From a virus, in IMG/VR virus record IMGVR_UViG_3300035670_000065, positions 47,993 through 111,992 of that record: a DNA stretch of 64,000 nucleotides. The stretch is one strand, 5' to 3'. The translations under genes and the position numbers were made by a program. This document shows positions 43,084 through 61,560 of this stretch, one piece after another; position 1 is the stretch's first letter; each line of letters starts with the position of its first letter. Below the pieces are notes generated by a model that was given only the letters and a program-made list of their open reading frames with translations, was not told where the DNA came from and ran no database searches.

Positions 43084-43159
43084 GCCCTCTTAGCGTAGTG
43101 GACGACGCAGCGCTCTTCTAAAGCGTTATACGGGGGTTCGATTCCCTCAGAGGGTGCCA
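43084..43159 (+). tRNA. tRNA-Arg(TCT)
   Basis: Cloverleaf, anticodon loop CTTCTAA, CCA end. Confidence 0.9.
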
Positions 43160-43283
43160 TAAATGCGATTATTAGAAGCTTGTAAATTTGTATGTGAATT
43201 TTATAGTATAGATATCGAAACTTGTCGTAATCTATACTGGGACGAAGTACTTGCTTATCTAAATATTTTGAATTGGAAAGATA

Positions 43284-43610
43284 ATGTACACACCAGATCG
43301 TTGGGTAATTTTGACGTTGCGTCATCCTGAGTATGCCCCGTTCTCTAGGGTGTTTGCAGGTTGGTACGGCGGATATACTGGATCGGACTCATGGAAGATG
43401 AACTCCGGTATTAAAGGCTGGATGCAGCATAAAGATTACTTCGAATTTGATGGGGCTAGTGGTAGCGTGTACCGTTGCTACAAGAACGCTCATGGAATGT
43501 CTGCTTACATGGGGTCTGTTTTAGCTAACTTCCAGGATCAACTGGCAGCGCAAGGTGGACAGCTCGTGATTGAAGATGAACATAATCTAGAAGGAATTAT
43601 ACTATGCTAG
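43284..43610 (+). CDS. Conserved phage hypothetical protein
   Basis: YTPDRWVIL...GWYGGY.GSDSWKMNSG motif common in large phages. Confidence 0.6.
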   Translation: MYTPDRWVILTLRHPEYAPFSRVFAGWYGGYTGSDSWKMNSGIKGWMQHKDYFEFDGASGSVYRCYKNAHGMSAYMGSVLANFQDQLAAQGGQLVIEDEHNLEGIILC

Positions 43611-43754
43611 AAGCTAGGGAGCATTTTGAATCTTGGTATCAAAGAGTTTATTGGGACTTTCGAAATCATGGAGTTAGGTATGACAAAGAAAAAGACCAAT
43701 ATAACCACTATGATGTAGATTTGGCATATAATTCATTTATGGAAGGATGGAATT

Positions 43755-43889
43755 ATGTTAGTGAAACCGCGTGACCCGTTTGCCAAGGCGGTTCGTACCG
43801 ACCCTATGTTTAGGCAACGTGTAGTAAAGAGCAAAAAGTGCTTCAAGCGGCATGAAAAGCATCGGACTGACCGTGCCCAAACAGCTTGA
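43755..43889 (+). CDS. ArfA-like (alternative ribosome rescue factor A) peptide, 44 aa
   Basis: MLVKPRDPFAKAVRTDPMFRQRVVKSKKCFKRHEKHRTDRAQTA versus ArfA core DPLFRQRVEKNKK...RKGKH; RBS upstream. Confidence 0.6.
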   Translation: MLVKPRDPFAKAVRTDPMFRQRVVKSKKCFKRHEKHRTDRAQTA

Positions 43890-44704
43890 AGATCGTCGGA
43901 TTGAAAAATTAGAGTATCGACTAGACCAGGCTCACCGTGTGATTCGGGAACTTCTCGGTGCTCTAACTTGCCCGTCTGAGGAACTTAGAATGTTGGTTCA
44001 CGATGTAGCTAAAGAATACATGGAGGAAGTATATGACAGAATGGGACGAGACGGAACACTTCCTGCCTCACGGAATGGGGGCGAGGGAGTTGTGGATGAC
44101 GGAAGAACAGAAGTACCAGTACTTTGATCGTGCTTTAGGGCATTTGATTGGTACGATCATGACGACTCCTCGCAGTGTATTAGAGGAAGTCATGGAAGAA
44201 AAAGTATCAGACAGGTTGGTAGAACAGTTTGAGGAGTATATGACCCAGGGTGACCTGGTTACAGAGTGTAACTGCTGTGGCTGGTGGCAGAACGATCACG
44301 ATGGCATTCATGGCGACTTGTGTTGGCGTTGTGCTGAAGACGAAGAAGATTTTGATCTTGAAGACGAAGCCTAATTGCTTTATAATATTACTTGTTGTGT
44401 GAGAAAAAGAGTTTCAACCCTAACCTAAAAAGGCAAAATAATGGCTAAGACTTATACGTTTGTGTGTTATGATAACGAAGATAAATGTACGACTGAAGTA
44501 ACTTTTAAGACCGATAATGACTGTTGGGATGGCTTTGATGGCCCAATGTCCAAGTTCTTTGACTTCCTGAAGGGCTGCGGTTTCGTGTTCGATATTAACT
44601 CTGAGATCGGAGTTATGGATGACGATGGTGATTTTCGCAGTTCAGTGAATCAACATTTTTGATCTTGAATTGACCGCTTAAACCCTGTATAATATTACTT
44701 ATAC

Positions 44705-45000
44705 GATGAGGGAACGCAGCCGACACCGACAAATAAATATCGCCACTATGTGCACAATATTGTCGAGTACGTCCTAGAGCAAGTACCCATTATCAGTACC
44801 ATGAGTTGAGGCTCTCAGAAAAGCCCCTAATATCATGAGTTTACGCTGTCTCAGAAAACAGGATGAGGGAGGCATCTCAATAGACAAGGCCCTTAGTGCT
44901 ACTAATTTCTAGCTAGGTCGATTGGTTACCTATCTGCGTTCGCAAACCCAGCGAAAACCAATGTGTTGCGGGGGTACGGGCTTCACCATACGAAGCCCCT
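44705..45000 (+). ncRNA. Structured non-coding RNA with tandem H-type pseudoknots
   Basis: Own promoter; closing helix GAACGCAG(44712)/CTGCGTTC(44934); repeated TGAG...CTCAGAAA units; boundaries approximate. Confidence 0.6.
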
Positions 45001-45813
45001 TTAGTAAGCATCAACTTGTAGGACTTTACCAGTGCTTCGGTATACGGGACAGCCAAAGATGATGCTTTCTAAAGGAGGTAGTTATGACACACTTTGCTAT
45101 TATATGTAAGGATACCTGGAAAGTTCTAGGGTACATTCCTGCCGTTAATCATAATCAAGCTACGGTAATGGGACAAATTGTATATCATAAAAATATTGTT
45201 GCAGTACTTCCGGAGGATAACTGTGCAACTTCAGACTAATGATTTGGATCAACTAGAGTTCGAGTGGGATATGTCAATGCTTCATGCCCAACTGGACATT
45301 TTGAATGCCGTTCGTAGAGAAATGCCTGAGGATCAAAGAGGTATAGTTGAGCGTTACATGGTTGAAATCGAGGACGAAATTGCCGGAATGACTATAGGTG
45401 AAGAAATTCTGACTTGATTTTGTTTTGTGTTCGGCGTATAATATTATTTCTGGGTTGAAGAACACTTCAATGAAAGGCAAGTTCTTTCAAGCGTTTAATC
45501 TTCACCCCAGAGTATTTAAGGTAGTTCACTTGGTGTTTCTAGACTCCTCAAATTGGGGAGATGAAAACTTAATATATGGTAAACATCTACCCCATGTACC
45601 AAGTACACTACCTTAAATGCTTTTAAGTAAAGCTAGCAGCAAGACTGTACCTTAGCAATAGTTCATTCGAGAAGGGGTAATGGCCTTCAGCTACCTAGGG
45701 AGCGCATACAGTCCCAAGTGTGAGACTCGCTCTGACTGATTCGAACAGATCAAGAGATAATAACTAAGGTGAAACACGAGTACTTAGTAGCTTTTCTTAA
45801 AAGTAAGTAATTC

Positions 45814-45903
45814 CGGGAGTGCAAGTAAGGTAGGTTGGACCTACGCAGCGCTGTAAACGCTGTCCTTCTAGGCACGAGGTTCGATTCCGTCCATTCCCGA
45901 CCA
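45814..45903 (+). tRNA. tRNA-Tyr(GTA), atypical
   Basis: CAGCG-CTGTAAA-CGCTG anticodon arm, long variable arm, CCA; extra nucleotides before the D-arm and an irregular T-stem. Confidence 0.7.
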
Positions 45904-45910
45904 AGTTTAT

Positions 45911-45987
45911 GGAGCTATCGTCTAACTGGTTAGGACATCACCCTTTCAAGGTGGGAACGTGGGGTTCGAATCCCCCTAGCTCTACCA
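45911..45987 (+). tRNA. tRNA-Glu(TTC)
   Basis: Cloverleaf, loop CTTTCAA, CCA. Confidence 0.92.
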
Positions 45988-46499
45988 AATAGAAGTAGAA
46001 CAGTGGCACACCTGGCGACGTGCGAAGCCACCGCATGAAGTAGCCGCTACCATCGAAACATTTAGAAAATTTGGGTAAATCCGACGACTCTAGTTGTTTT
46101 AGAGGCCTAACGTCCGCCAGACGCGGTAACTGGCTTAGTATCCTAAAATGTATTAACTGACCCTAAGTTGCGAAACGCGGAGACTGAGTGGAATCAGTCT
46201 AGCAAACCCAATACGGTGGGAAGATGAAAAAATTCAGGATTCACGACGACGCCCGAACCTACGAGATTCCACTCTGGTATACGGCCTAATAGTGACGAGC
46301 AACAAGTAATCTTACAGTTAATACTTTTTAGTATATTAAGGAGTTATTATGATACAGATAGCAATGTGGCCTGATGGCACATGGTGTGAACTTGAGGACA
46401 TAGAAGCGTACTTGCACTTCATGTCAGATGACTACGAAATTAAACAAGTTACTACACTAAAGTATTACGAATTATGCTTTGGTGATTAAGAAGGTATTT

Positions 46500-46585
46500 G
46501 GGGCGGTGGCGTAACCCGGTAGCCGCGCTGGTCTTAGAAACCAGTTCCGAAAGGAGTGAGAGTTCGATTCTCTCCTGCCCCACCA
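46500..46585 (+). tRNA. tRNA-Leu(TAG)
   Basis: Loop CTTAGAA, long variable arm, CCA. Confidence 0.92.
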
Positions 46586-46607
46586 GATAAGCAGTTCAAG
46601 ATATAGA

Positions 46608-46690
46608 GCCACCGTGGAGAAATTGGTATACTCACAAAACTTAAAATTTTGCGCTTCGGCATGCCGGTTCGATCCCGGCCGGTGGTACCA
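46608..46690 (+). tRNA. tRNA-Leu(TAA)
   Basis: Loop CTTAAAA, long variable arm, CCA. Confidence 0.92.
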
Positions 46691-46928
46691 AATACTATGG
46701 AGCTAAAATGAAAATCAGAGTAGAAAGAGATACATCGTATAGCTATTATCTTTTAGATGCCGAGTATCTAGCTATTATTGATCCAGATAGTTACTACAAT
46801 ACGATTACGGTTTCTGATGAGTTTGTAGCTAAGTACAGAGCATTACAAAAGTTAAATAACGAAATGCAAGATGCGCTAAAGGCGATACACGATGAAAGTT
46901 TCCGCACGGTATACAAGGCAATCTAAAT

Positions 46929-47003
46929 GCTCCGGAAGCTTAACGGTCAAGCGATGTCCTCATAAGACAGGGAAAGCTGGTTCAACTCCAGTCCGGAGCA
47001 CCA
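46929..47003 (+). tRNA. tRNA-Met/Ile2(CAT)
   Basis: Loop CTCATAA, CCA. Confidence 0.88.
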
Positions 47004-47004
47004 C

Positions 47005-47079
47005 GGGTTGCAAGCTTTAATGGTGAAGCATACGGCTCTTACCCGTAAGAACACGGATCGTTACCGTGGCAACCCACCA
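47005..47079 (+). tRNA. tRNA-Lys(CTT)
   Basis: TACGG-CTCTTAC-CCGTA; T-loop ATCGTTA; CCA. Confidence 0.85.
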
Positions 47080-47149: not shown

Positions 47150-47671
47150 ATGGCAAACATCTTTTTTGCTAGCGATCACCATCTAACTCATACAAACATA
47201 CTCACTTTTAAGCGCTCAGATGGAAGTCCTCTTAGGGATTTCCCTAATATCACCGAACACGATGAGTACATCATTGCTCAACACAATAACCGTGTTCGTG
47301 ATTGCGACAAGACCTACTTTCTAGGTGACGTGGTCATGAGCCACAAGAATCTTCACCTCCTGGGTAGGCTGAATGGAGAGAAGGTTCTAATTAAGGGCAA
47401 CCATGATTGTGCTAAGCTAAGTCAGTACGAGCCTTACTTCAAGGATATTCGTGGCAGCCACCAGTTTAGCGGTATTATCATGACTCATATCCCTATTCAT
47501 CCAGAGAGTCTGGCTAGATGGGGCGTCAATATTCATGGCCACCTACACTACCATCGTGTTCCAGATCAGTACGGTAATCCGGACAAACGATACTTTAATG
47601 TTAGTATGGAATGTCTAGACGACTATACACCGATCAGTCTTGAGGAAATAAAATCTAGACTTGATCTCTGA
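47150..47671 (+). CDS. Calcineurin-like metallophosphoesterase
   Basis: SDHH, LGDV, GNHD, HGHLH. Confidence 0.88.
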   Translation: MANIFFASDHHLTHTNILTFKRSDGSPLRDFPNITEHDEYIIAQHNNRVRDCDKTYFLGDVVMSHKNLHLLGRLNGEKVLIKGNHDCAKLSQYEPYFKDIRGSHQFSGIIMTHIPIHPESLARWGVNIHGHLHYHRVPDQYGNPDKRYFNVSMECLDDYTPISLEEIKSRLDL

Positions 47672-47941
47672 GTTAAAACAGCGTATAATATCTTTATTGA
47701 ATGGGAGAACACTATGAACGAAACGACACTAGAAATTGTGAGACTTTTGAATGATGTTGGCCTGTTCCCCGGAGAGACTGTATTAGTAGAGATCAATGAC
47801 CTGGTTCAATCCACGCTTGATGAAGCGTACAGTGATGGATACCTCGAAGCACAAGCTGAGTTTGATGTACCGGAAGAATACGAGTACGACTACTAAAAAT
47901 TCAGACTTGACCCTAAACTGAAATTGCTTTATAATAGTTAT

Positions 47942-49210
47942 ATACACTGAGGAAAACGAATAGCGATAATTGACGAATTATCTACTCGGGCGCAAACGGC
48001 GGGTGACGCGTCCTGATATAATCTGATCTCCGCTGCGGACAGTTAGCTACTGACTCCAAAATTGATCCCTAAAGTGTATACATATGGTGGTAGAGACAAC
48101 GAAACTCTCCAACGCTTCTAGGTAAGTGCTTGCAGAACGCTACGGCGTCAATATTCTGCATAAACCTAGTACCCTACTGATGAGCTAGTGAAACTCTAGC
48201 GAAACGGCAGACAATCTAGCGAATAGGTGCGGAGAGGCTTCAATCCAATCCCCTACATAGCGGTCTGTTCGTATAGGTAAAATCAAGAAGTGTGGAACTG
48301 TCAAGCCACTAGCGGAGAAGTCAACGCTCTCCAATATACTGCTAGCGCTAGCTATGACGCAGTTGACCCAAGCTGTAGGGGGACTATAATTCTAAATGAC
48401 CCGTAATAAAGCATTATTGGATATCTACATAGTGCTTACGGAACAATATAGAATCTTGGTAAAACGGGTTACTTTAGACGACCTGGGAACAGAATAAGTC
48501 CACAACTTAGACCGTGTTAAGTATAAAATACGTTTAGTGGTGGTAGTGCGAGGCTATTGTTAAACGGATTGCTAAGATCCGGCCACTTAAATAAATCCAG
48601 CGCGAGTGCAGCGTTCCAACGATAGAAAGCATCAACGGTAATAGTTGGATTATCTGGTACTAAGGTGAGTATGTAAGGGAGCCAGTAGAAGTCTGATGAA
48701 CGAGGGTCGCCTCACCCCCTGCATAAAGGCCGATTGAGAATCGACCACCTAAAAGTCCAAGGACACAAGTGACTATAAATATAGTGTTAGTGCGACATTG
48801 CCCTGTTTAAGCACTTAAATCCTAGAAACTGGCAAAGGGGTATCCGCCCTATGTATAACTGGATAGGCCGTGCCTACAAGCCGAATGTAACTGGAGACTG
48901 CCTAGGCCACCCGTGCCTCGATCGCAAACGGTAGGGATACAGGCCAACCCCGGAGTGAAGAGTTTTCCACTAACTTGGTTTCTTCTTCAATCTACCTCCG
49001 CCTCAACGGTAAATCAGCTGTAGATAGCTCGTAAATCCGTATGAAAGATATTGTTAGCGGTGTTTCCTCGATTCTTCCGTAAAAGTAACGAAGTGTAGCC
49101 TGACGCTGGCTATGAGTCCCGTAAAGACAGTACGTTGTGATATGAGCCTGACCAAATCACAGAAATCTCGTGGTTAGGACTCAAAGCCTCCTGTGTAAGG
49201 AGGCTTTGTT
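47942..49210 (+). ncRNA. Candidate giant structured non-coding RNA (about 1.27 kb)
   Basis: No ORF of 60 aa or more in any frame from 47897 to 49304; promoter 47907-47935; terminator 49183-49214; many hairpins. Confidence 0.6.
48170..48279 (+). ncRNA. Type I hammerhead ribozyme
   Basis: CTGATGA(48177)-GCTAG/CTAGC stem II-GAAA(48201)-stem III CGGCAGAC/GTCTGTTCG-GTA cleavage triplet (48271-48273)-TAGG pairing with CCTA (stem I). Confidence 0.8.
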
Positions 49211-49725: not shown

Positions 49726-50475
49726 ATGTTAGTTAAACTTCTGTCAGACCTACACATTCATAATAACAACCCGTTCCGTTATACGGATCACGGAGAGTAT
49801 GTTTGCGTTCTAGCAGGAGATATTAGCGAAGGTATGCATGGTGTGGAGTGGGCGTTAGCTTGTATTCCAGACCACATTAAAGTGCTGTATGTTCCTGGGA
49901 ACCATGAGTACTATGGTCAGATTTACCAGGTGCTAAATGCACGTTTTGCTCACCATAATAAGAGAGGTACTCATGTAACTGTGCTGCAGGAGCAGTCTGT
50001 TACGATTGGTGACATTGAGTTTGTAGGCACGACCCTATGGTCAGACTTTGCGTTGTATGATAACCCTTCAAGGCACGCTATCTACTGGAAGAACGGCCTA
50101 AACGACTCCAGGTGGATTTGGCGGGAAGAAGGCGGTGGGATTGGCCCACAAGACTTCCTAGACTGGAATGCAAGGTCACTCGCGTTTCTGCGTTCAGTTG
50201 CAGAGACCCCCAAAGATAAGACAAGAGTTCTTATCACTCACTACTGTCCAGATCTTTCGGTGGCGCCCAGGTACCGAAACGATGAGCTAACCCCTGGTTT
50301 CGCTACGCATATCCCTGTGGAGACACATGAAACATTCGACTTCCATTTTCACGGCCATACCCATGATAGTATGAAATATGAGTACCCATTCGGTACTAAG
50401 GTATTCTGTAATCCTAAGGGTTACGGTATGGAGAACGTATCGGGATTTAATCAGGAGCTAGTACTGGATATTTAG
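49726..50475 (+). CDS. Metallophosphoesterase
   Basis: SDLH, AGDI, PGNHEYY, HGHTH. Confidence 0.88.
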   Translation: MLVKLLSDLHIHNNNPFRYTDHGEYVCVLAGDISEGMHGVEWALACIPDHIKVLYVPGNHEYYGQIYQVLNARFAHHNKRGTHVTVLQEQSVTIGDIEFVGTTLWSDFALYDNPSRHAIYWKNGLNDSRWIWREEGGGIGPQDFLDWNARSLAFLRSVAETPKDKTRVLITHYCPDLSVAPRYRNDELTPGFATHIPVETHETFDFHFHGHTHDSMKYEYPFGTKVFCNPKGYGMENVSGFNQELVLDI

Positions 50476-51429: not shown

Positions 51430-51503
51430 TGCGGGTTTGTGGCGGCACGACTAGAGTCTCATAAGCTCATAGGAAGGGAGTTCGACTCTCCTGCCCGCAA
51501 CCA
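51430..51503 (+). tRNA. tRNA-Met(CAT), possibly initiator-like, short D-arm
   Basis: Loop CTCATAA, acceptor TGCGGGT/GCCCGCA, CCA. Confidence 0.75.
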
Positions 51504-51505
51504 GT

Positions 51506-51581
51506 TGGCAAGTAGCTCAGTGGTAGTAGCCGTGCACTGTTAATGCACTGGTCGTAGGTTCGATCCCTACCTTGCCAGCCA
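51506..51581 (+). tRNA. tRNA-Asn(GTT)
   Basis: Loop CTGTTAA, CCA. Confidence 0.92.
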
Positions 51582-51820: not shown

Positions 51821-51834
51821 CAAAGTACTTTTAA

Positions 51835-52142: not shown

Positions 52143-52315
52143 TTAAATTAACTGTTGCGTAGTAATGCGTTACTTCACATACTATGAGCCTATAGATCCC
52201 GCAATTGAAGGGGATTTCTGGGGTTAGAAGATGACGAAGCTAACCCGACATTTGTCCGTTGCGCACGTCCGTAAGGCGGCAAAGAACGTACTACGACCTT
52301 TCTCAGTTAATTTAA
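52143..52315 (+). ncRNA. Y-RNA-like RNA 1
   Basis: Terminal stem TTAAATTAACTG/CAGTTAATTTAA, GTTGCG...TTACTTC, CTTTCT loop; upstream of Ro60. Confidence 0.75.
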
Positions 52316-52426
52316 TTAAGTTTGTTGCGTAAGTATAGAGATACTTCATGGATGAAAATTTGACTTCTAATCAAAACTTGTGGGTTCAAACCCCACTTTC
52401 TCTATCTAACTATTCTCAAACTTAAT
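52315..52426 (+). ncRNA. Y-RNA-like RNA 2 (anticodon-arm plus T-arm cargo)
   Basis: ATTAAGTTTG/CAAACTTAAT stem, GTTGCG...AGAGATACTTC, TTTGA-CTTCTAA-TCAAA and GTGGG-TTCAAAC-CCCAC. Confidence 0.78.
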
Positions 52427-52432
52427 AGTATT

Positions 52433-52521
52433 TTATTGCTGCGATATAAAGAGTTACTTCCTGCCAGCTTTACTAGGATAATCGAGGGATTACCCGAACT
52501 CTCTATAATTTTTCTCAATAA
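52433..52521 (+). ncRNA. Y-RNA-like RNA 3
   Basis: TTATTG/CAATAA stem, GCTGCG...AGAGTTACTTC...AACTCT...TTCTC. Confidence 0.7.
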
Positions 52522-52528
52522 CCCTAAT

Positions 52529-52598
52529 TTTTTCGTTGCGTTTTATACAGTTACTTCATTTAGCGGAAATAAACACTGTATATACCCTTTCTCGGAAA
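52529..52598 (+). ncRNA. Y-RNA-like RNA 4 (minimal)
   Basis: GTTGCG-TATACAG-TTACTTC...CTGTATA...CTTTCTC, ends 9 nt before the Ro60 ATG. Confidence 0.7.
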
Positions 52599-54178: not shown

Positions 54179-54212
54179 AAGGGCGCGTTAGCAATAACGT
54201 GCCCTTTTTCTT
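54179..54212 (+). terminator. Intrinsic terminator after Ro60
   Basis: AAGGGCGCGTTA-GCAA-TAACGTGCCCTT plus T-tract. Confidence 0.8.
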
Positions 54213-55023: not shown

Positions 55024-55809
55024 ATGGCGAAGCGCACTAATATTGAGGAACTTCCAGGGTTTCACTATCTAGTACATGGTCGACACGGTGTATTTCTAGC
55101 TAATAAGAATGATATATATGTAGGTGGGGCACTTATCACTTATGGTGAGTTTAGCGAGTTAGAGACGGACACTTTTAAGCGTTTCGTAGATAAAGAAACC
55201 ACAGTAATTGAGATTGGTGCTAATATTGGTGCACACACTGTATGGTTGGCTAAGAATGCTAAACGAGTAATTGCTATTGAGCCTCAACCTTTCATTTTCT
55301 ATACTCTATGTTCTCAAATTGCATTAAATAGCTTACAGAATGTAGAATGTATTAACTCCTGTGTAGGATTTAGTGGAAATGGATTTATTGATATTCCTAG
55401 TCTTGATTATTCTAAGCCAAATAATTTTGGTGGATTGGAAATGTCTGCTCCTTCGGATGAGCGAGTTCGTGTCCGATGTGAAACACTCGATGAGATTGTT
55501 CAATCCAGAAATATAACTGGAAAAGTATTTCTTAAAGTAGATGTAGAGGGAATGGAGGAGCAGGTATTGCGTAGTGGAGCACATTTCATTAGAGATATGC
55601 AACCTGTTATGTATGTAGAAAATGACCGACCAGAAAAATCAGAAGGTCTAGTCTCTTATATTAAGAGCATGGGTTATAAGCTAGAAAGAGACGCTCCTAC
55701 ACTATTTAATCCTAATAACTTCTTTAAGAAGAAAGATAATAAGTTCGTTAATGCACAAGGTAATGCTTTTGCCAGCTTTAACGAAATATGTACCCCAATT
55801 CTGGTGTAG
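55024..55809 (+). CDS. FkbM-family methyltransferase
   Basis: IEIGANIGAH, IEPQ, LKVDVEGME, YVENDR. Confidence 0.88.
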   Translation: MAKRTNIEELPGFHYLVHGRHGVFLANKNDIYVGGALITYGEFSELETDTFKRFVDKETTVIEIGANIGAHTVWLAKNAKRVIAIEPQPFIFYTLCSQIALNSLQNVECINSCVGFSGNGFIDIPSLDYSKPNNFGGLEMSAPSDERVRVRCETLDEIVQSRNITGKVFLKVDVEGMEEQVLRSGAHFIRDMQPVMYVENDRPEKSEGLVSYIKSMGYKLERDAPTLFNPNNFFKKKDNKFVNAQGNAFASFNEICTPILV

Positions 55810-55874
55810 CTCAGCGGTAGAGCAGTGTCTTGATAAGGCATTGGCCACTGGTTCAATCCCAGTCACCAGAACCA
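55800..55874 (+). tRNA. tRNA-Ile(GAT)
   Basis: Loop TTGATAA, CCA. Confidence 0.9.
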
Positions 55875-55879
55875 AACAT

Positions 55880-55968
55880 GGAAGGTTATCTAGCCGGGGA
55901 AGCTAGCCTAGTCTTGAAAACTAGTGGAGCCGCAAGGCCAGGAGTTCGATTCTGCCATCCTTCCGCCA
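55880..55968 (+). tRNA. tRNA-Ser(TGA)
   Basis: Loop CTTGAAA, long variable arm, GCCA end. Confidence 0.85.
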
Positions 55969-56126
55969 AATACTATGAAAACAATATTAATAGTATTATT
56001 TTTGACTGGATGCGTTATACACGTTCCAGTCTACTTCAAAGATGATTCTGGTAAGTGTCACGCTGTGACACCAGAGGGAGTTATGTTTGACGTAGATTGT
56101 GACTTTATACCTAAAAGGAGGTAATC

Positions 56127-56690
56127 ATGTCCCTAGTACTCGGTTTAGACCAAGCCGGTACTCCCCATAGTTGGTTAGATATTGAACACGCAGCCATGCA
56201 CTACGCTAAAGGCCATGTTGCATGGGAGGCTGGAAACAGTTTTGTTACGCTGCACGGGGGTACTAACGCTAGAACCCAAAAGCGTTCTGAACTAAATATC
56301 AATTCAATTATATCGGTAAATGGCGATGATTACTTTAGTAAGAACTATAATTCAACGATATCAATTAGCCGTCGAATGCTCTTTAAGAGAGATAGACATA
56401 TGTGTGCTTACTGTGGAACGGTTTTTCACGATAAATCGTTAGAACTGGAACACGTTATCCCTAAGTCTAAGGGGGGTGCTACAAGCTGGACTAACATAGT
56501 TAGTGCTTGCCGTACTTGCAATGCCAGGAAAGATGATAGAACTCCTGAGCAGGCACATATGCAGTTACTATATGTACCGTATACTCCTAATAGGCATGAG
56601 GCGTTTATTTTAGCAAATCGTAACATCCTAGTAGATCAGATGGCATTTCTACTACAGGGTGTCCCAAAACATTCAAGACTTTTGACATAG
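56127..56690 (+). CDS. HNH endonuclease (bacterial-type)
   Basis: LFKRDRHMCAYCG...EHVIPKSKGG..SWTNIVSACRTCNARK..RTPEQA. Confidence 0.88.
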   Translation: MSLVLGLDQAGTPHSWLDIEHAAMHYAKGHVAWEAGNSFVTLHGGTNARTQKRSELNINSIISVNGDDYFSKNYNSTISISRRMLFKRDRHMCAYCGTVFHDKSLELEHVIPKSKGGATSWTNIVSACRTCNARKDDRTPEQAHMQLLYVPYTPNRHEAFILANRNILVDQMAFLLQGVPKHSRLLT

Positions 56691-56766
56691 GCCAGGTTGA
56701 TCCGAGAGGTTAGGTGACATCCTTACAAGATGTATTATACTGGTTCGAGTCCAGTACCTGGTACCA
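56691..56766 (+). tRNA. tRNA-Val(TAC)
   Basis: Loop CTTACAA, CCA. Confidence 0.9.
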
Positions 56767-56777
56767 TATATATATAT

Positions 56778-57392
56778 ATGAATATACTAGAATTTCTAAA
56801 GTTAGCATTTCTATCCTCAGGGTATAAAATACCTAAAAATACTAAGGGAATTAGTGAGGAAATACTGCTGGAGTTTATAGCCCACGGTATGTCGGTTAGA
56901 AGCGGTGGACTAGGGTATACTTCCGCGGGCGGTATTAATAAGTTTCTAAAGAAATGCTTCCCTGATAAATCTTCCAGTATTTCCTATAGATCATTCCTGC
57001 TAGGAAAAATACGACATAAATTATGTACAAAATGTTTAGTAGTAAAACCTTTTGAAGACTACCATATAAATGGTAGTAATATAGATGGTATAGCTGACTA
57101 TTGTAAAATATGTCAATGCTCTACTAGAAAGGACTACTATAAGAATAATTCTTCTAAAGAGATTACTAATAATAGTGTAAGGGATGGGAGGTTACGCATG
57201 TTGCAAACTCCAAAGTGGGCCGATAATACGAAATTGGCAAAATTCTACAGAGATTGTCCCGAAGGATACCATGTGGACCACATTATACCTTTAAATGGTA
57301 TACTAGTTAGTGGGTTAAATGTACATAATAATTTGCAGTATCTGACAGCCAGAGAAAACCTTTCAAAAAGTAATAAATATACTATAGAATAA
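56778..57392 (+). CDS. HNH homing endonuclease (paralogue of 19021-19662)
   Basis: HVDHIIPLNG.LVSGL....NLQYLTA.ENLSKSN. Confidence 0.85.
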   Translation: MNILEFLKLAFLSSGYKIPKNTKGISEEILLEFIAHGMSVRSGGLGYTSAGGINKFLKKCFPDKSSSISYRSFLLGKIRHKLCTKCLVVKPFEDYHINGSNIDGIADYCKICQCSTRKDYYKNNSSKEITNNSVRDGRLRMLQTPKWADNTKLAKFYRDCPEGYHVDHIIPLNGILVSGLNVHNNLQYLTARENLSKSNKYTIE

Positions 57393-57397
57393 ACAAT

Positions 57398-57471
57398 AGC
57401 TCAGTAGTGTAACGGCAACACCCCGCTCTTTGACAGCGGTATTTCTGGTTCAAATCCAGACTGGGCCACCA
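57398..57471 (+). tRNA. tRNA-Gln(TTG)
   Basis: CCGCT-CTTTGAC-AGCGG, CCA. Confidence 0.88.
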
Positions 57472-57477
57472 AACAAC

Positions 57478-57552
57478 AATGCCGTGGCCGAGAGTATAGG
57501 CAAACGTCTGCAAAACGTTTTCACGTCAGTTAGAATCTGACCGGCATGTCCA
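57478..57552 (+). tRNA. tRNA-Cys(GCA)
   Basis: Loop CTGCAAA, U73, CCA. Confidence 0.85.
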
Positions 57553-57557: not shown

Positions 57558-57693
57558 AGTTGCTGCGTATAAAAGAGTTACTTCACACTTGTAATGTCGT
57601 GGTCGGTGGTTCGAATCCACCCCGAAGCCGAAAGCTAAGGTAGCTCAGCTGGATAGAGCACGTAACGTCACTCTTTTAGATCCCTTCCCAACT
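57558..57693 (+). ncRNA. Y-RNA-like RNA 5 (YrlA-type permuted tRNA domain)
   Basis: AGTTG/CAACT ends, GCTGCG...AAAAGAGTTACTTC; T-arm GGTGG-TTCGAAT-CCACC precedes D-arm TAGCTCAGCTGGATAGAGC. Confidence 0.82.
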
Positions 57694-57696: not shown

Positions 57697-57772
57697 GGCT
57701 CGTTCGTATAATGGTATATTACGGCGGATTGTCTATCCGTTCATAACAGTTCGATTCTGTTACGAGTCGCCA
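57697..57772 (+). tRNA. tRNA-Asp(GTC)
   Basis: Loop TTGTCTA, GCCA end. Confidence 0.9.
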
Positions 57773-57778
57773 AACAAT

Positions 57779-57852
57779 GCGTGCATAGTTTAGAGGTAAA
57801 ATCATTGGCTTCCACCCAATAGTCCTCGGTTCGATCCCGAGTGCCCGCACCA
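57779..57852 (+). tRNA. tRNA-Gly(TCC)
   Basis: Loop CTTCCAC, CCA. Confidence 0.9.
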
Positions 57853-57919
57853 GTTACAAAATTTTAATCTTGACCCTAAAGCTAAAACGGCTTATAATAT
57901 ATCTTTAAGTGAGAGAACA

Positions 57920-58087
57920 ATGACCGCGAAGATAATAGAATTTGACCCTAAACCGCAGAAACCTCAGAAGTGTTCGTTCTGTGGCACGTCTAAAAGTAAA
58001 GCCACTAGAATGATACAATCCTCAACCGGAAAGTGTATCTGTGATAAGTGTCTAGCTAAAGTAAAGGCATTATCTGATGCGAATTGA
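57920..58087 (+). CDS. Stand-alone ClpX-type C4 zinc finger, 55 aa
   Basis: MTAKIIEFDPKPQKPQKCSFCGTSKSKATRMIQSSTGKCICDKCLAKVKALSDAN; first gene after promoter 57870. Confidence 0.7.
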   Translation: MTAKIIEFDPKPQKPQKCSFCGTSKSKATRMIQSSTGKCICDKCLAKVKALSDAN

Positions 58088-59162: not shown

Positions 59163-59254
59163 GGAAGGTTCCCATAATTGGTATTGGAGCGGTTTGCTAA
59201 ACCGTCGGTCTGCTAACCACAGGCTTGTGGGTTCGAGTCCCACACCTTCCGCCA
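59163..59254 (+). tRNA. tRNA-Ser(GCT)
   Basis: Loop TTGCTAA, long variable arm, GCCA end. Confidence 0.92.
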
Positions 59255-59900
59255 CTAAGGAGATTGTTATGCGAATGTAGATAACTTTACAGGAGTATAA
59301 TATGTCTAGAACTTTTAGAAAACAGCCATACACCTGGCGTAGTACAGATCCTTTGTTTGACTGGACGTGTTGCGAGGACGAGGTAGTATGGGAAGATGTA
59401 GAATATGCTTTTATTAACAGAGACTTTGGTCAGTGGTCACGTTACACTTACTATACTGTTAAGTACAAAGCAGATAGCAAAACAGGGAAGAGACTGTTAG
59501 CGCGTAGCAAGATGGACAAGGTTATTACCTTCAAAGAGCCAGGACCCTCGTGGTTTCGTAACCTTTTTGAAGAGCGTCCTCTGCGTCGTAATAGCAAACG
59601 TGAACTTCAGAAGTTCATGTACGATGAAGGCTACGAACCTATCATAGATTCTATCCCGCGCAAAAAGATTTACTGGACATGAACAGCTACACTCGATAAC
59701 CGATAAGAAGCCGGAGTTTCCGGAACTACTGGTGGAAGGCCGAGGAAGTAGGGCTGGCGTTGATTCAATCTCATTCATGTTCATCCTATTCAAGCTAGAA
59801 CAAAACGAGAACGGGATGCGAACCCTAGATATCGACAAAACTAGCCCCTGTCGCAAGGGAACGGTGGACTACCCTGATAAAGTGGCTGCCGTGAAACTAA

Positions 59901-60125
59901 TTCGGTGATGGCAAAGTAAAAGTATTCAAGACACGGGTTCGACTCCCGTCATTTCCAAGACTACGGGAATGTAACGGCTTCGATTGGGTATGACTAGCAA
60001 TGCCGGAGAATCGTCAGCTAAGACGTAAAAACAACGCATAATAAATGCAAACGATGAAAGATATAGCCTAGCTGCTTAAGTTAGGCGAAGGTTTCGGGAC
60101 TGTCCCTTCTTACCAATACAGTCCC
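59901..60125 (+). ncRNA. ssrA: Circularly permuted (two-piece) tmRNA, tag ANDERYSLAA
   Basis: T-arm plus 3' acceptor CATTTCC-A (59950-59957) precede 5' acceptor GGGAATG (59965-59971; G3-U70); tag ORF 60047-60079; 5' boundary approximate. Confidence 0.88.
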
Positions 60126-60513
60126 ATTTTGTTACTATCTTACTCGCCACTTAAGCTAATATATGCGGAGTTTCGTCGACAATAACCTTCCGCGGGTAAT
60201 CAGGAGCACCTGACTTGGGTAGGGTAGTATCAAAATATAAACGGAGTAAATATGGAAAAACTATTAGAGAAGTATGTTGAAAACGAAACTAAAATAGCTA
60301 CCATTAATGGACTCCTAATTGCAGAAGCAATGTGTGCTAGGAAGCTCCAAGAAGTTTACAGTAGAGATATTTTAGATATTATGGGCGACATTGCCGCAGC
60401 TATAGAGGACATTAAAAATGCTTAAGAAATTACTGAAATGGATTGTCACGTTAGAAAGTCCATCTCACAAAAGATTTGCAGAACTAATGTTTCTGACTAA
60501 AAAATAAACTAAT

Positions 60514-60588
60514 GCTACGCTAGCTCAGAGGTAGAGCTCTCGCCTTGTAAGCGAGGGGTCGTCTGTTCGATTCAGACGCGTAGCACCA
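60514..60588 (+). tRNA. tRNA-Thr(TGT)
   Basis: Loop CTTGTAA, CCA. Confidence 0.92.
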
Positions 60589-60589
60589 T

Positions 60590-60665
60590 ATCCCATGAAG
60601 TGTAATGAATTTGCACGCGACGCTACGGACGTTGAAGAACGGTTTGATTCCGGCATGGGGTGCCA
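60590..60665 (+). tRNA. tRNA-Arg(ACG), atypical 8-bp acceptor and short T-stem
   Basis: CGACG-CTACGGA-CGTTG; ATCCCATG/CATGGGGT; CCA. Confidence 0.75.
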
Positions 60666-60671
60666 AACAAC

Positions 60672-60745
60672 GGGGGTAAAGCTTTAAGGTGAAGCAACTG
60701 GCTTTTAACCAGTAGAAGAAGGGCCACTACCTTCTACCCCTACCA
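60672..60745 (+). tRNA. tRNA-Lys(TTT) with a non-canonical T-loop
   Basis: ACTGG-CTTTTAA-CCAGT; T-arm GAAGG-GCCACTA-CCTTC; CCA. Confidence 0.82.
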
Positions 60746-60836
60746 AGATTAGGTAACTGACTCCCGTACAGAGTTGGTGAGGCGCAGAGGACTGCAAGTA
60801 CAGCCAACGGGTTCGAATCCCGTCCTATTAAACAAC

Positions 60837-60912
60837 GCGTGCTTAGCTCAGCTGGTAGAGCGGAACGTTGCCAACGTTCAGGTCGCAGGTTCGAACCCTG
60901 TAGCCCGCGCCA
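60837..60912 (+). tRNA. tRNA-Gly(GCC)
   Basis: Loop TTGCCAA, CCA. Confidence 0.92.
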
Positions 60913-60918
60913 AGTTTA

Positions 60919-61022
60919 ATACGTTGCGTTGTTTAGAGATACTTCATAGGTTCGAATCCCATACCCGGGGCCACTATCCCGGGTCGCCGTTGGTGGCACA
61001 CTCTAACAAATTTTCCTCGTAT
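60919..61022 (+). ncRNA. Y-RNA-like RNA 6 (YrlA-type)
   Basis: ATACG/CGTAT ends, GTTGCG...AGAGATACTTC, T-loop GGTTCGAATCC, closed acceptor CCCGGG/CCCGGG, D-like arm GCC-GTTGGT-GGC. Confidence 0.8.
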
Positions 61023-61029
61023 ATTTAAC

Positions 61030-61497
61030 ATGAAAATACTATTTCTAGATATTGATGGAGTATTAAATAATACTGCCACGTTTATTCACAATAGGCAGAT
61101 GCAAAAGAAGTACGTTGGTTACTCTCATCGTCATTTTGATGAGATAGACCCTAAATTGCTAGCACTTGTAAGACACATATGTGAAGAAACTGGTGCAAAG
61201 ATAGTAATTAGCTCCAGTTGGAGAATTCTTCATACAATGGGTCAAATAATAGAAGTGTTTGAAGCCCAGGGCTGGAAGAACCCACCAGTTATTGATATGA
61301 CTGGACGTTCTGATAATGGATTCAGAGGGCAGGAAGTATACAATTGGATAGAAGGTTGCGAATCCTTAACTGGATATGCTATCCTAGATGACGATGGAGA
61401 CTTCTTTCCTAATCAGCCTTTGTTTAGAACAGATACTAGAATTGGTCTGACTTTCCCAATTGCTGAAGAAGTAATAAAGCATCTACGGTGTTGCTAG
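61030..61497 (+). CDS. HAD-domain protein of the Swiss-Army-knife RNA-repair type
   Basis: ILFLDIDGVLN, IVISSSWR, RGQEV..W, YAILDD, GLT. Confidence 0.82.
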   Translation: MKILFLDIDGVLNNTATFIHNRQMQKKYVGYSHRHFDEIDPKLLALVRHICEETGAKIVISSSWRILHTMGQIIEVFEAQGWKNPPVIDMTGRSDNGFRGQEVYNWIEGCESLTGYAILDDDGDFFPNQPLFRTDTRIGLTFPIAEEVIKHLRCC

Positions 61498-61560
61498 TGT
61501 AGTGGCTGCACGATTGTCTGTGAAACAATCAGAGAGGGTTCGATTCCCCGCTTCACCCCA
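61487..61560 (+). tRNA. tRNA-His(GTG)
   Basis: Loop CTGTGAA, G-1:C73, CCA. Confidence 0.85.

What the first reader, a model, noticed from the sequence alone, without database searches (positions are those of the whole stretch)
43084..61560. Integrated translation-rescue and RNA-repair island
Within 18.5 kb: tRNAs for all 20 amino acids, tmRNA, an ArfA-like peptide, Ro60 plus six Y-like RNAs, an RNA-repair-type HAD directly after Y unit 6, two metallophosphoesterases and a ClpX zinc finger. Inference: a layered counter-measure to host defences that cut tRNA/mRNA (replace tRNAs, decoy nucleases, heal ends, free stalled ribosomes). No RNA ligase (RtcB/Rnl) is visible in this window.
Basis: inference. 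Interest (0 to 1): 0.72.

Follow-up and report, generated by a model that had tools for sequence, protein, structure and literature searches.

The report
Phage tRNA, ribosome-rescue and Ro60 region
The early arm of an uncultured 112-kb phage does hold about 26 tRNA genes, a two-piece tmRNA, a short ArfA-like ribosome-rescue peptide and a Ro60 protein with six partner RNAs, but it reads as a lineage-specific collection of known phage translation-support parts, not one integrated RNA-repair machine.

Summary
All eight listed components are present at the stated coordinates. There are about 26 tRNA genes: 18 amino acids are firm, and Ala and Tyr rest on sub-threshold candidates. The others are a permuted tmRNA, a 44-aa ArfA homologue, Ro60 (TROVE+vWA), six RNAs sharing one covarying handle, a HAD_SAK_2 protein, two metallophosphoesterases and a stand-alone ClpX zinc finger. 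The whole 112-kb genome has no RtcB, Rnl1/Rnl2, polynucleotide-kinase-type kinase, CCA enzyme, SmpB or release factor, so it cannot repair RNA by itself.

Among 48 other Ro60-bearing viral records the parts assort unevenly. Handle RNAs (28 of 46 loci, mostly within 1 kb upstream of Ro60), tRNAs (26/48) and tmRNA (10-11/48) travel with Ro60. HAD (2/48), ArfA (3/48) and the ClpX finger (0/48) do not.

The counter-defence idea is already published for large phages (Iyer et al. 2021). What is new here:
- Phage ArfA-like peptides are a real family that includes Pfam DUF7230 of Acinetobacter T4-like phages.
- The Ro60-linked handle RNA family is absent from Rfam.

This scan has already found phage Ro60 with Y-like RNA arrays, in two cases beside a tmRNA, on other DNA.

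The parts
43084..43159 (+). tRNA-Arg(tct)
   Evidence: ARAGORN default, Rfam tRNA 59.3 bits
43755..43889 (+). 44-aa ArfA homologue with its own stop codon. The KGKGS segment is replaced by KKCFKRHEKH.
   Evidence: Pfam ArfA 25.0 bits, E 1.3e-5. 67% identical ORF in L004. Profile of phage peptides hits PDB ArfA at E 0.0017. 126 of its 150 nearest relatives are Pfam ArfA.
45824..47079 (+). tRNA cluster: Tyr(gta) candidate 45824-45898 (weak), Glu 45911-45987, Leu(tag) 46500-46585, Leu(taa) 46608-46690, Met 46929-47003, Lys(ctt) 47005-47079
   Evidence: The Tyr candidate aligns to a default-threshold tRNA-Tyr in L004.
47150..47671 (+). Metallophosphoesterase 2 (173 aa)
   Evidence: phrog_547 153.7 bits. 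DHH, GD, GNHD and GHLH motifs. No Pfam hit.
47936..49210 (+). About 1.27-kb ORF-free RNA between promoter 47907-47935 and terminator 49182-49208, with a hammerhead-like core at 48170-48279
   Evidence: No ORF of 40 aa or more on the + strand. Promoter and terminator. 72-86% nucleotide identity to L004. Core conserved, with stem II covariation. No Rfam match.
49726..50475 (+). Metallophosphoesterase 1 (249 aa)
   Evidence: Pfam Metallophos 26.5 bits; phrog_1649 140.4 bits
51430..52132 (+). tRNA cluster: Met-2 51430-51503, Asn 51506-51581, Pro 51745-51821, Ala(tgc) 51835-51910, Phe 51965-52040, Trp 52048-52132
   Evidence: Met-2 and Ala appear only at the relaxed threshold. Ala has G3:U70 and an encoded CCA.
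52150..52597 (+). Four tandem handle (Y-like) RNAs A-D: 52150-52308, 52320-52421, 52434-52520, 52531-52597. They end 11 nt before the Ro60 start codon.
   Evidence: Covariance model R1 58.5-64.9 bits. Cognate arms pair at -9.9 against -5.2 kcal/mol for non-cognate arms. Family covariation.
52608..54173 (+). Ro60 homologue (TROVE + vWA), followed by terminator 54179-54206
   Evidence: Pfam TROVE 88.7 bits, VWA_2 41.6 bits. phrog_850. Terminator.
55800..57552 (+). tRNAs Ile 55800-55874, Ser(tga) 55880-55968, Val 56691-56766, Gln 57398-57471, Cys 57478-57552, interleaved with two HNH endonuclease genes (56127-56690, 56730-57392)
57558..57693 (+). Handle RNA unit E, with a permuted tRNA-like cargo (T arm, closed acceptor-like stem, D arm)
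   Evidence: R1 59 bits. Rfam YrlA 32 bits, below the gathering score of 69. Orthologue in L055 with a compensatory T-stem change.
57697..57852 (+). tRNA-Asp(gtc) and tRNA-Gly(tcc)
57920..58087 (+). Stand-alone ClpX-type C4 zinc finger (55 aa), first gene after promoter 57870-57898
   Evidence: PF06689 38.8-39.3 bits against a cut-off of 27. Promoter.
59163..59254 (+). tRNA-Ser(gct)
59860..60170 (+). Circularly permuted (two-piece) tmRNA, tag ANDERYSLAA
   Evidence: ARAGORN. RF04321 93.7 bits, RF01850 84.1 bits.
60514..60912 (+). tRNAs Thr 60514-60588, Arg(acg) 60590-60665, Lys(ttt) 60672-60745, Gly(gcc) 60837-60912
   Evidence: An Arg(acg) orthologue passes default ARAGORN in L056.
60919..61022 (+). 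Handle RNA unit F
   Evidence: R1 60.4 bits; orthologue L004:18797-18901 at 69.3 bits
61030..61497 (+). Stand-alone HAD_SAK_2 phosphatase-type protein (155 aa) with an intact DIDGV motif
   Evidence: PF18143 89.5 bits; sequence; phrog_1818
61487..61559 (+). tRNA-His(gtg)

Best explanation
This is the early-transcribed RNA-gene arm of an uncultured siphovirus of about 112 kb, probably with a beta- or gammaproteobacterial host. It is a translation-support region, not an RNA-repair system.

Shown by homology and comparison:
- About 26 tRNA genes.
- A two-piece tmRNA.
- A truncated ArfA homologue.
- An operon-like unit in which a tRNA cluster runs into four tandem handle RNAs, Ro60 and a terminator, plus two dispersed handle RNAs.

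Inferred mechanism:
- Strong sigma-70-type promoters express the arm early in infection.
- The tRNAs top up or replace host tRNAs.
- The tmRNA (with host SmpB) and the ArfA-like peptide (with host RF2) free ribosomes stalled on broken or stop-less mRNAs.
- The six handle RNAs each load Ro60 through the shared two-helix handle and present a different cargo. One cargo is a YrlA-like tRNA mimic. The resulting particles would tether Ro60 to host RNA enzymes such as PNPase, or gate it, as shown for Deinococcus Rsr and Thermus phage phiLo.

The HAD, the two metallophosphoesterases and the ClpX finger are independent lineage-specific additions with unassigned targets. End-healing is only one possibility for the phosphoesterases. 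Whether the pressure behind all this is host RNA-cutting defence or ordinary infection stress cannot be decided from sequence.
For: All component identities are established.

Sixteen of 17 strong promoter-like sites lie on the + strand, and terminators follow Ro60 and the large RNA.

The handle family (search, tally): 112 hits, all on the Ro60 strand. Outside the training sources there are 66 hits at E<=0.01 in 28 of 46 loci, 52 of them within 1 kb upstream of Ro60. 14 of 14 pairs covary, and 91.9% of cells are paired against 59.7% in shuffles.

tRNAs lie within 10 kb of Ro60 in 26 of 48 loci. A tmRNA above the gathering score occurs in 10-11 of 48 records, and in all six near-complete records of the closest Ro60 clade. 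The published baseline is 2.3% of phages (PMC9004378).

ArfA homology. All three ArfA-positive relatives also have a tmRNA.

The genome lacks SmpB, an RF-1 domain, ligases, a kinase and a CCA enzyme, so it depends on host partners.

Published precedent: phage Ro60 plus upstream Yrl RNAs bind host PNPase (PMC12135203).
Against: There are no expression, binding or activity data; the phage is known only from metagenomes.

Five of the 26 tRNAs fail default thresholds.

The ArfA-like peptide lacks the KGKGS segment that the jumbo-phage homologues keep, so it could be inactive or inhibitory.

The handle RNAs fail the Rfam YrlA threshold, and five of the six lack a full tRNA-like module.

Confidence: 0.6

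Rival explanations
1. One reading: one integrated, layered counter-defence island. tRNAs replace cut host tRNAs, handle RNAs act as decoys for anticodon nucleases, HAD and the metallophosphoesterases heal cut ends for a host ligase, and tmRNA plus ArfA clear the resulting stalled ribosomes.
For: - The same logic is proposed for jumbo phages, naming TROVE proteins, stand-alone SAK-type HAD and calcineurin-like phosphatases (PMC7824862).
- Units B and E carry 7-nt loops identical to those of the phage tRNA-Arg(UCU) and tRNA-Thr(UGU).
- HAD follows unit F with 7 nt between them.
- The whole order is conserved in L004.
Against: - No ligase, kinase or CCA enzyme in the genome. A 3'-phosphatase would also destroy the end that host RtcB needs (established RtcB chemistry).
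- HAD 2/48, ArfA 3/48 and ClpX finger 0/48 among Ro60 phages.
- HAD_SAK_2 sits beside thymidylate synthase/DHFR in P10VF and NAD/nucleotide genes in KVP40.
- Synteny with L004 reflects close descent (76% Ro60 identity).
- Loop identity is expected by chance for roughly one in three arbitrary anticodons, given 26 tRNAs.
Confidence: 0.2
2. Housekeeping only. The tRNAs match phage codon use and compensate for host tRNA turnover late in infection. Ro60 with its RNAs is quality control for the phage's own densely packed, polycistronic tRNA precursors. The other genes are unrelated accessory genes gathered in a recombination-prone region seeded by homing endonucleases.
For: - Three homing endonucleases lie inside the stretch, and gene content differs from L004 exactly at such insertions: the FkbM methyltransferase, the second HNH, the GIY-YIG and the ClpX finger are absent there.
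- The Ro60 operon is read through from a tRNA cluster.
- Ro60 binds misfolded small RNAs in animals (background in PMC4201824).
Against: - It does not explain two separate ribosome-rescue factors.
- It does not explain the recurrence of tmRNA in every near-complete member of the Ro60 clade.
- It does not explain six different cargoes on one handle.
Confidence: 0.2
3. Host take-over by interference. The KGKGS-less ArfA-like peptide and the free ClpX zinc finger act as dominant-negative blockers of host ribosome rescue and of SspB/ClpX-dependent degradation, while the phage tmRNA retargets tagging.
For: - The peptide lacks the KGKGS segment kept by jumbo-phage homologues.
- The zinc finger has no AAA+ module and opens the transcription unit that contains the tmRNA.
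- The tag keeps the AANDxxY and LAA determinants of the E. coli tag (plus established knowledge of SspB and ClpX recognition).
- A phage tmRNA-like RNA that inhibits host tmRNA is on record (phage DS6A, cited in PMC11915505).
Against: - The region that aligns to the RF2-contacting part of ArfA, and a basic tail, are conserved.
- The ClpX finger is absent from the closest relative and from all 48 Ro60 phages, so it is not part of a conserved design.
Confidence: 0.12

Closest known systems
Phage RNA-repair and ribosome-rescue gene sets of large phages (Iyer, Anantharaman, Krishnan, Burroughs, Aravind 2021, PMC7824862, section 3.4.9; Burroughs and Aravind 2016 as cited there)
   Same: Many tRNAs, a TROVE/Ro protein with a tRNA-like RNA partner, a stand-alone 'Swiss army knife' HAD and calcineurin-like phosphoesterases, all read as answers to host attack on the translation apparatus.
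   Different: - No RtcB or ATP-grasp RNA ligase, no polynucleotide kinase, no RlaP or CCA enzyme, although these normally accompany the end-healing enzymes. A peptidyl-tRNA hydrolase was not searched for.
- Rescue is by tmRNA plus an ArfA-like peptide, which that survey does not mention.
- The genome is 112 kb, not jumbo.
Ro60 with Y RNAs in phages and bacteria: Thermus phage phiLo Ro60 with Yrl1 and Yrl2 (PMC12135203); mycobacteriophage and bacterial YrlA (Chen et al. 2014, PMC4201824; Rfam RF02553); the Deinococcus Rsr-Yrn1-PNPase machine
   Same: - RNA genes lie directly upstream of Ro60 on the same strand.
- A long stem formed by the 5' and 3' ends is interrupted by an asymmetric internal loop.
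- The layout of stem 1, a 5-nt UGC-containing loop, a 7-bp stem 2 and then a module parallels the YrlA consensus.
- One unit carries T and D arms in YrlA order.
   Different: - Six units per genome, and up to five per locus in other phages.
- A different conserved box: YUGCGUA and UACUUCA in place of GNCGAA.
- Best YrlA score 32 bits against a gathering score of 69.
- Most cargoes are not tRNA mimics.
E. coli ArfA (PF03889; ribosome complexes 5MGP, 5U4I, 5H5U)
   Same: The conserved A..(L/V)..DP(L/M)FRQRV.K.KK core and a basic tail.
   Different: - 44 aa with its own stop codon, rather than a product of an RNase III-cut non-stop mRNA.
- The KGKGS segment is missing.
- It is encoded by a phage. 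Related peptides in Acinetobacter T4-like phages are filed as Pfam DUF7230.
Phage-encoded two-piece tmRNA (OM43 phage Melnitz and 53 two-piece forms among 402 tmRNA-bearing phages; Buchholz et al. 2022, PMC9004378)
   Same: A permuted gene form in an early region, with no phage SmpB found in this genome.
   Different: Betaproteobacterial-type sequence (RF01850 84.1 bits) with an E. coli-like tag. No glutamine riboswitch was detected.
Salmonella rsr-yrlBA-rtcBA RNA-repair operon (Hughes et al. 2020, PMC7790460, listed but not read)
   Same: Ro60 and Y-like RNAs in one transcription unit, linked to tRNA damage.
   Different: No RtcB or RtcA here. Only 6-7 of 48 Ro60 phage records have RtcB, adjacent to Ro60 in two nearly identical records, one of them classed as a provirus.

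Membership tests
Ro60 / TROVE (PF05731) | TROVE (HEAT-repeat ring) domain above the Pfam cut-off | tested here: met
   88.7 bits against 23
Ro60 / TROVE (PF05731) | C-terminal vWA domain | tested here: met
   VWA_2 41.6 bits against 27; the Ro60-specific vWA model gives 20.9 bits, below 27.7
Ro60 / TROVE (PF05731) | Equivalog of bacterial Rsr (NCBIfam NF041674) | tested here: not met
   31.4 bits against a cut-off of 900: a divergent phage branch, not an Rsr orthologue
YrlA Y RNA (Rfam RF02553) | Score at or above the gathering score of 69 bits | tested here: not met
   Unit E 32 bits; the other five units have no hit at E<=1
YrlA Y RNA (Rfam RF02553) | Encoded within 4 kb of Ro60 (criterion of Chen et al. 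2014) | tested here: met
   Units A-D lie 11-458 nt upstream and unit E 3.4 kb downstream. Unit F, at 6.7 kb, is outside.
YrlA Y RNA (Rfam RF02553) | tRNA-like module with T and D arms | tested here: inconclusive
   Present in unit E. Unit B has a T arm and an anticodon-like arm. Units A, C, D and F do not.
YrlA Y RNA (Rfam RF02553) | 5' GNCGAAN0-1G Ro-binding motif | tested here: not met
   The six units have YUGCG(U/A) at that position. One distant phage unit (L029) has GCGAA there.
Phage Ro60-linked handle RNA (defined here, model R1) | Two covarying helices around an asymmetric loop plus a UACUUC box, on the Ro60 strand | tested here: met
   Six of six units at 58-65 bits. Family covariation 0.812 against 0.200 in shuffles (on an alignment fitted to the model).
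ArfA (PF03889) | Score at or above the Pfam cut-off of 25.5 bits | tested here: inconclusive
   25.0 bits, E 1.3e-5. The jumbo-phage homologue scores 35.6 bits.
ArfA (PF03889) | Nearest relatives are ArfA | tested here: met
   126 of the 150 best profile hits match Pfam ArfA. E. coli ArfA chains are the top six PDB hits.
ArfA (PF03889) | KGKGS segment that lies in the mRNA channel | tested here: not met
   Replaced by KKCFKRHEKH, with a 3-residue gap in the alignment
ArfA (PF03889) | RF2-dependent release on non-stop ribosomes | not testable with these tools
   Needs an in vitro release assay
Permuted tmRNA (RF04321) | Gathering score and a tag reading frame ending in a degron | tested here: met
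   93.7 bits against 47; tag ANDERYSLAA
Permuted tmRNA (RF04321) | SmpB partner encoded alongside | tested here: not met
   No PF01668 match in the genome; it must use host SmpB
HAD_SAK_2 (PF18143) | Domain score and the DxDx(T/V) nucleophile motif | tested here: met
   89.5 bits; DIDGV at residues 7-11
End-healing and sealing RNA repair (T4 Pnkp+Rnl type, or RtcB type) | An RNA ligase | tested here: not met
   No RtcB, Rnl1 or Rnl2 in six-frame searches of the whole genome; the controls gave matches for RtcB and Rnl2 and only weakly for Rnl1
End-healing and sealing RNA repair (T4 Pnkp+Rnl type, or RtcB type) | A polynucleotide 5'-kinase | tested here: not met
   No AAA_33 match
ClpX | N-terminal C4 zinc finger plus an AAA+ unfoldase module | tested here: not met
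   Zinc finger only, 55 aa: a domain homologue, not a ClpX

The most novel reading that the evidence does not exclude
Short, stop-codon-terminated ArfA-like peptides are a widespread and so far undescribed class of phage-encoded ribosome-rescue factors or rescue blockers. They occur in this phage, its relatives, two 345-360-kb jumbo phages and, as Pfam DUF7230, 42 Acinetobacter T4-like phages. In this lineage they work together with a phage tmRNA and with Ro60 particles. The six interchangeable cargo RNAs of those particles would direct one ring protein to different host RNA enzymes or damaged tRNAs, giving the phage a programmable RNA-surveillance and rescue kit against RNA-cutting defences.
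Probability: 0.25. Interest if true: 0.75.

Novelty: new variant of a known kind. Interest (0 to 1): 0.5.

Why it matters
The role of Ro60 and Y RNAs outside animals is still unclear. Whether phage tRNA regions exist for codon supply or for defence evasion is also debated.

This genome offers a compact natural combination: full tRNA coverage or nearly so, two independent ribosome-rescue factors, and one Ro60 with six different partner RNAs. It has no repair ligase of its own. That separates 'rescue and surveillance' from 'repair', and it predicts dependence on host SmpB, RF2 and possibly PNPase or RtcB.

Two by-products are directly usable:
- A covariance model (R1) of a Ro60-linked handle RNA family that is absent from Rfam and recurs in most phage Ro60 loci examined.
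- A functional lead for Pfam DUF7230 (ArfA-like), which can be tested in cultured Acinetobacter phages.

Tried and rejected
**Searches that led nowhere**
- Megablast of 15 kb against 50,697 phage records found only tRNA-sized matches, so there is no cultured near relative.
I used the search for related loci instead.
- The word-indexed protein search with the 44-aa peptide returned only itself.
- tblastn with the jumbo-phage ArfA peptide found nothing in cultured phages.
- Pfam and NCBIfam give no name to the 173-aa phosphoesterase; PHROGs and motifs do.
- PDB sequence search gives nothing for the HAD.
- My strict regular-expression descriptor for the handle found only three of the six units and had about 1.5 chance hits per shuffled genome. 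The covariance model replaced it.
- MAFFT put five units one column out of register at the 3' end, so the pair counts were made on the model-fitted alignment, with that caveat.

**Readings considered and rejected**
- A self-sufficient RNA-repair system: no ligase or kinase.
- A T5-like classification from genome size alone: the structural module has a fused protease-capsid gene and a 2,935-aa tape-measure-sized gene, and it was not pursued further.
- The second 'tRNA-Arg(tct)' as a true tRNA: it sits inside handle unit B.
- Anticodon-loop identity as evidence of baiting: chance is sufficient.

The host could not be identified.

Full report
**What the window is.** The window is bases 47,993-111,992 of a 111,992-bp IMG/VR virus record that CheckV rates complete. 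Bases 1-30,000 of the window carry a siphovirus structural module on the minus strand: terminase, portal, a fused protease-capsid gene, a major tail protein and a 2,935-aa ORF. From about 30 kb onward the genes run on the plus strand. The flagged 18.5 kb lies in this arm. It holds 17 strong sigma-70-like sites (at least 10 of 12 positions matching), and 16 of them are on the plus strand, most with a 17-nt spacer and a perfect TATAAT. Clear terminators follow Ro60 and a large non-coding RNA. I read it as an early region transcribed by host polymerase. No cultured phage is close at the DNA level.

**Check of the observation: tRNAs.**
- ARAGORN at default settings tRNAs covering 17 amino acids, plus a permuted tmRNA.
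- Rfam adds a tRNA-Met (46929-47000, 52.8 bits) and a tRNA-Lys(ttt) (60672-60742, 47.9 bits).
- At a relaxed threshold five more cloverleaves appear inside the tRNA clusters. These are Ala(tgc), with G3:U70 and an encoded CCA, a second Met, Ser(tga), Arg(acg) and a poor Tyr(gta).
- Orthologues of Ala, Ser(tga), Lys(ttt), Tyr and Arg(acg) pass the default threshold in related contigs. The Tyr candidate aligns base for base with the relative's tRNA-Tyr but has weak D and T stems.
- One default call, 'tRNA-Arg(tct)' at 52334-52406, lies inside handle-RNA unit B.
- The count is therefore about 26 tRNA genes. Eighteen amino acids are firm, Ala is probable and Tyr is doubtful.

**Check of the observation: other components.**
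- tmRNA: firm, with RF04321 at 93.7 bits and the tag ANDERYSLAA.
- Ro60: firm, with TROVE at 88.7 bits plus vWA.
- HAD_SAK_2: firm at 89.5 bits, with an intact DIDGV motif.
- Metallophosphoesterases: one is seen by Pfam. The other is seen only by PHROGs (153.7 bits) and by its motifs.
- ClpX zinc finger: a 55-aa stand-alone protein.

**The ArfA-like peptide.**
- The 44-aa ORF scores 25.0 bits on Pfam ArfA, half a bit under the cut-off.
- It is conserved as an ORF in the 76%-Ro60 relative.
- Six-frame searches of 48 Ro60-bearing viral records found further copies in two jumbo phages of 345 and 360 kb. Both keep the canonical KGKGS(Y/F) segment, and one scores 34-36 bits.
- tblastn found weak but consistent matches in 42 Acinetobacter T4-like phages. 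The 41-aa Acj61 protein belongs to Pfam DUF7230 and aligns along its whole length with the other phage peptides.
- A profile of the five phage peptides hits E. coli ArfA chains as the six best PDB matches, at E 0.0017-0.0035.
- A profile of the four permitted peptides found 642 cluster representatives at E<=0.001 among 1.84 billion proteins. Of the best 150, 126 match Pfam ArfA and 14 match DUF7230. A few carry the name ArfA in JGI annotation.
- So the peptide is an ArfA homologue. It has its own stop codon and lacks the KGKGS segment, so its activity cannot be assumed.
- I found no paper on phage-encoded ArfA in the library.
- Acj61 has the peptide but no tmRNA.

**The six Y-like RNAs: structure.**
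- All six share one layout. A lower stem of 4-9 bp is followed by a 5' loop YUGCG. Then come an upper stem of 7-10 bp, an invariant UACUUCA and a variable cargo of 20-130 nt. The 3' strand of the upper stem, a pyrimidine-rich 3' loop and the 3' strand of the lower stem close the unit.
- Four units stand head to tail and end 11 nt before the Ro60 start codon. One unit lies between tRNA-Cys and tRNA-Asp, and one ends 7 nt before the HAD gene.
- The cognate 5' and 3' arms pair far better than non-cognate ones (-9.9 against -5.2 kcal/mol).
- Relatives with 76% and 87% Ro60 identity carry the same array with different stem sequences.

**The six Y-like RNAs: comparison with other phages.**
- I built a covariance model from 15 units and searched 958 kb on both strands: the window, 48 viral Ro60 loci, one metagenomic relative and two control loci.
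- It gave 112 hits, all on the Ro60 strand, none in the controls, and in the window exactly the six units.
- Outside the training sources there are 66 hits at E<=0.01 in 28 of 46 loci. Of these, 52 lie within 1 kb upstream of Ro60, at one to five copies per locus, with Ro60 identities down to about 25-30%.
- On the resulting alignment 91.9% of cells pair, against 59.7% in shuffles. All 14 pairs show double changes. The covariation score is 0.812, against 0.200 in shuffles and at most 0.149 with slid partners. The alignment is fitted to the model, which favours the structure.
- A simple sequence pattern for the 5' box is 30-fold enriched in the kilobase upstream of Ro60.

**The six Y-like RNAs: relation to YrlA.**
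- These RNAs are not captured by Rfam YrlA. The best score is 32 bits for unit E against a gathering score of 69, and 22 bits for a distant phage unit.
- They carry UGCGUA where YrlA has GNCGAA.
- The helix-loop-helix layout nevertheless parallels the YrlA consensus, and unit E has YrlA-type T and D arms.
- I conclude that the six units are members of a real Ro60-linked RNA family. That they bind Ro60 is an inference from association and from precedent (PMC4201824; PMC12135203).

**Is it an RNA-repair system?** Six-frame profile searches of the whole genome find no RtcB, Rnl1, Rnl2, AAA_33-type kinase, CCA-adding enzyme, SmpB or RF-1 domain. The controls gave matches, weakly for Rnl1. Without a kinase and a ligase, a 3'-phosphatase cannot complete repair. 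It would also remove the 3'-phosphate that host RtcB needs; that point rests on established RtcB chemistry, not on a test here. HAD_SAK_2 homologues occur in 337 cultured phage records. In KVP40 the homologue lies beside a cytidylyltransferase and a helicase. In P10VF it lies beside thymidylate synthase, DHFR and DNA ligase, with no RNA genes near. The Pfam name is therefore a weak guide to function.

**Do the parts travel together?** Among the 48 Ro60-bearing viral records:
- HAD_SAK_2 is in 2.
- ArfA is in 3.
- RtcB is in 6-7, adjacent to Ro60 in two nearly identical records, one classed as a provirus.
- The ClpX finger is in none.
- tRNAs lie within 10 kb of Ro60 in 26 loci, with five or more tRNAs in 12.
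- A tmRNA above the gathering score is present in 10-11 records. This includes all six records of the closest Ro60 clade that are at least 65% complete. A survey of cultured phages put the baseline at 2.3% (PMC9004378).
- All three ArfA-positive relatives also have a tmRNA.

It is not met for handle RNAs, tRNAs and tmRNA. Genome size and shared descent confound these numbers, and I did not correct for them.

**Mechanism.** The best-supported reading is a translation-support arm that depends on host partners.
- The tRNAs supply decoding capacity.
- The tmRNA (with host SmpB) and the ArfA-like peptide (with host RF2) clear stalled ribosomes.
- Ro60 is loaded by one of six handle RNAs whose cargoes differ, probably to tether or gate the ring toward host RNA enzymes. 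This has been shown for Deinococcus Rsr with PNPase and for phage phiLo Ro60 with host PNPase.
- Only the homologies, the RNA family and the associations are shown. Expression, binding and activities are inferred.

The tag keeps the AANDxxY and LAA determinants of the E. coli tag, and the free ClpX finger is the first gene of the unit that contains the tmRNA. That invites a link to SspB/ClpXP. However, the finger is absent even from the nearest relative, so I treat the link as a loose idea.

**Comparison with what is known, and novelty.** The framework of phage tRNAs plus repair and rescue enzymes as an answer to host attack on translation was published for jumbo phages. That work names TROVE proteins with tRNA-like partners, stand-alone SAK-type HAD and calcineurin-like phosphatases (PMC7824862). 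Phage Ro60 with upstream Y-like RNAs is experimentally characterised (PMC12135203). Two-piece phage tmRNAs have been catalogued (PMC9004378). This scan has itself reported phage Ro60 with arrays of Y-like RNAs, in two cases beside a tmRNA, on other DNA.

The island is therefore a new variant of a known kind. Its particular points are the combination of tmRNA and ArfA, the absence of any ligase, six cargo-distinct handle RNAs, and two generalisable by-products: the phage ArfA/DUF7230 family and the handle-RNA model.

**Limits.**
- The host is not identified. The beta-type tmRNA, the ArfA homologue and the tag point to a beta- or gammaproteobacterium only loosely.
- E-values from the home-made model are rough.

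Noticed in passing
window 47936-49210: A 1.27-kb ORF-free RNA with its own promoter and terminator. It is 72-86% identical in relative L004, as well conserved as neighbouring coding sequence, has no Rfam match, and is flanked on both sides by the two metallophosphoesterase genes in both phages.
   Followed up: partly
window 48170-48279: Hammerhead-like core (CUGAUGA, 5-bp stem II, GAAA, long stem III, GUA, 4-bp stem I). The core letters are invariant in L004, while stem II changes from GCUAG/CUAGC to CUGAG/CUCAG. Rfam hammerhead models give no hit at E<=1. Cleavage would leave a 2',3'-cyclic phosphate end next to the genes of phosphoesterases.
   Followed up: partly
L057:2489-2614 (Acinetobacter phage Acj61, GU911519.1 2507-2632) and 41 further Acinetobacter phage records: Pfam DUF7230 (47.3 bits) aligns over its whole length with the phage ArfA-like peptides, and 14 of the 150 nearest relatives of the phage ArfA profile are DUF7230. 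DUF7230 is probably a divergent ArfA branch. Acj61 has no tmRNA.
   Followed up: partly
L053:925-1000 (jumbo phage G006): An ARAGORN tRNA with anticodon CTA (an amber-suppressor type, printed as Pyl) lies about 500 nt from the ArfA-like gene of a 345-kb phage.
   Followed up: no
window 51582-51744: A 163-nt stretch between tRNA-Asn and tRNA-Pro folds into a 15-bp terminal stem enclosing three hairpins (-39 kcal/mol). It has no handle motif and no Rfam match.
   Followed up: no
window 60743-60836: A 94-nt spacer between tRNA-Lys(ttt) and tRNA-Gly(gcc) contains a perfect T-arm-like hairpin. Relaxed ARAGORN on the whole genome reads it as 'tRNA-Pro(agg)'. It may be a tRNA remnant or another tRNA mimic.
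   Followed up: no
window 55024-55809: An FkbM-family methyltransferase with weak TRM5/TYW2 and Taw2 similarity, ending inside tRNA-Ile. It is absent from relative L004. It could be an RNA methyltransferase.
   Followed up: no
window 44663-45083: A 421-nt ORF-free stretch behind a strong promoter (44665-44693), partly conserved in L004 (87-93% over two short blocks). A sister note reads tandem pseudoknots here; I did not examine this.
   Followed up: no
window 56127-56690, 56730-57392, 61895-62584: Two HNH and one GIY-YIG homing-endonuclease genes lie among the tRNA genes. The second HNH and the GIY-YIG are missing in L004, which marks recent insertions.
   Followed up: partly
L004:3324-3480: A sub-threshold group I intron match (RF00028, 37 bits against a gathering score of 50) in the relative's tRNA region. 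It has no counterpart in the window.
   Followed up: no
L036 and L037 (G033, G034): In two nearly identical Ro60 viral records (one classed as a provirus) RtcB starts about 110 nt after Ro60, the bacterial operon arrangement. The handle model gives only a weak hit there (20.5 bits).
   Followed up: no
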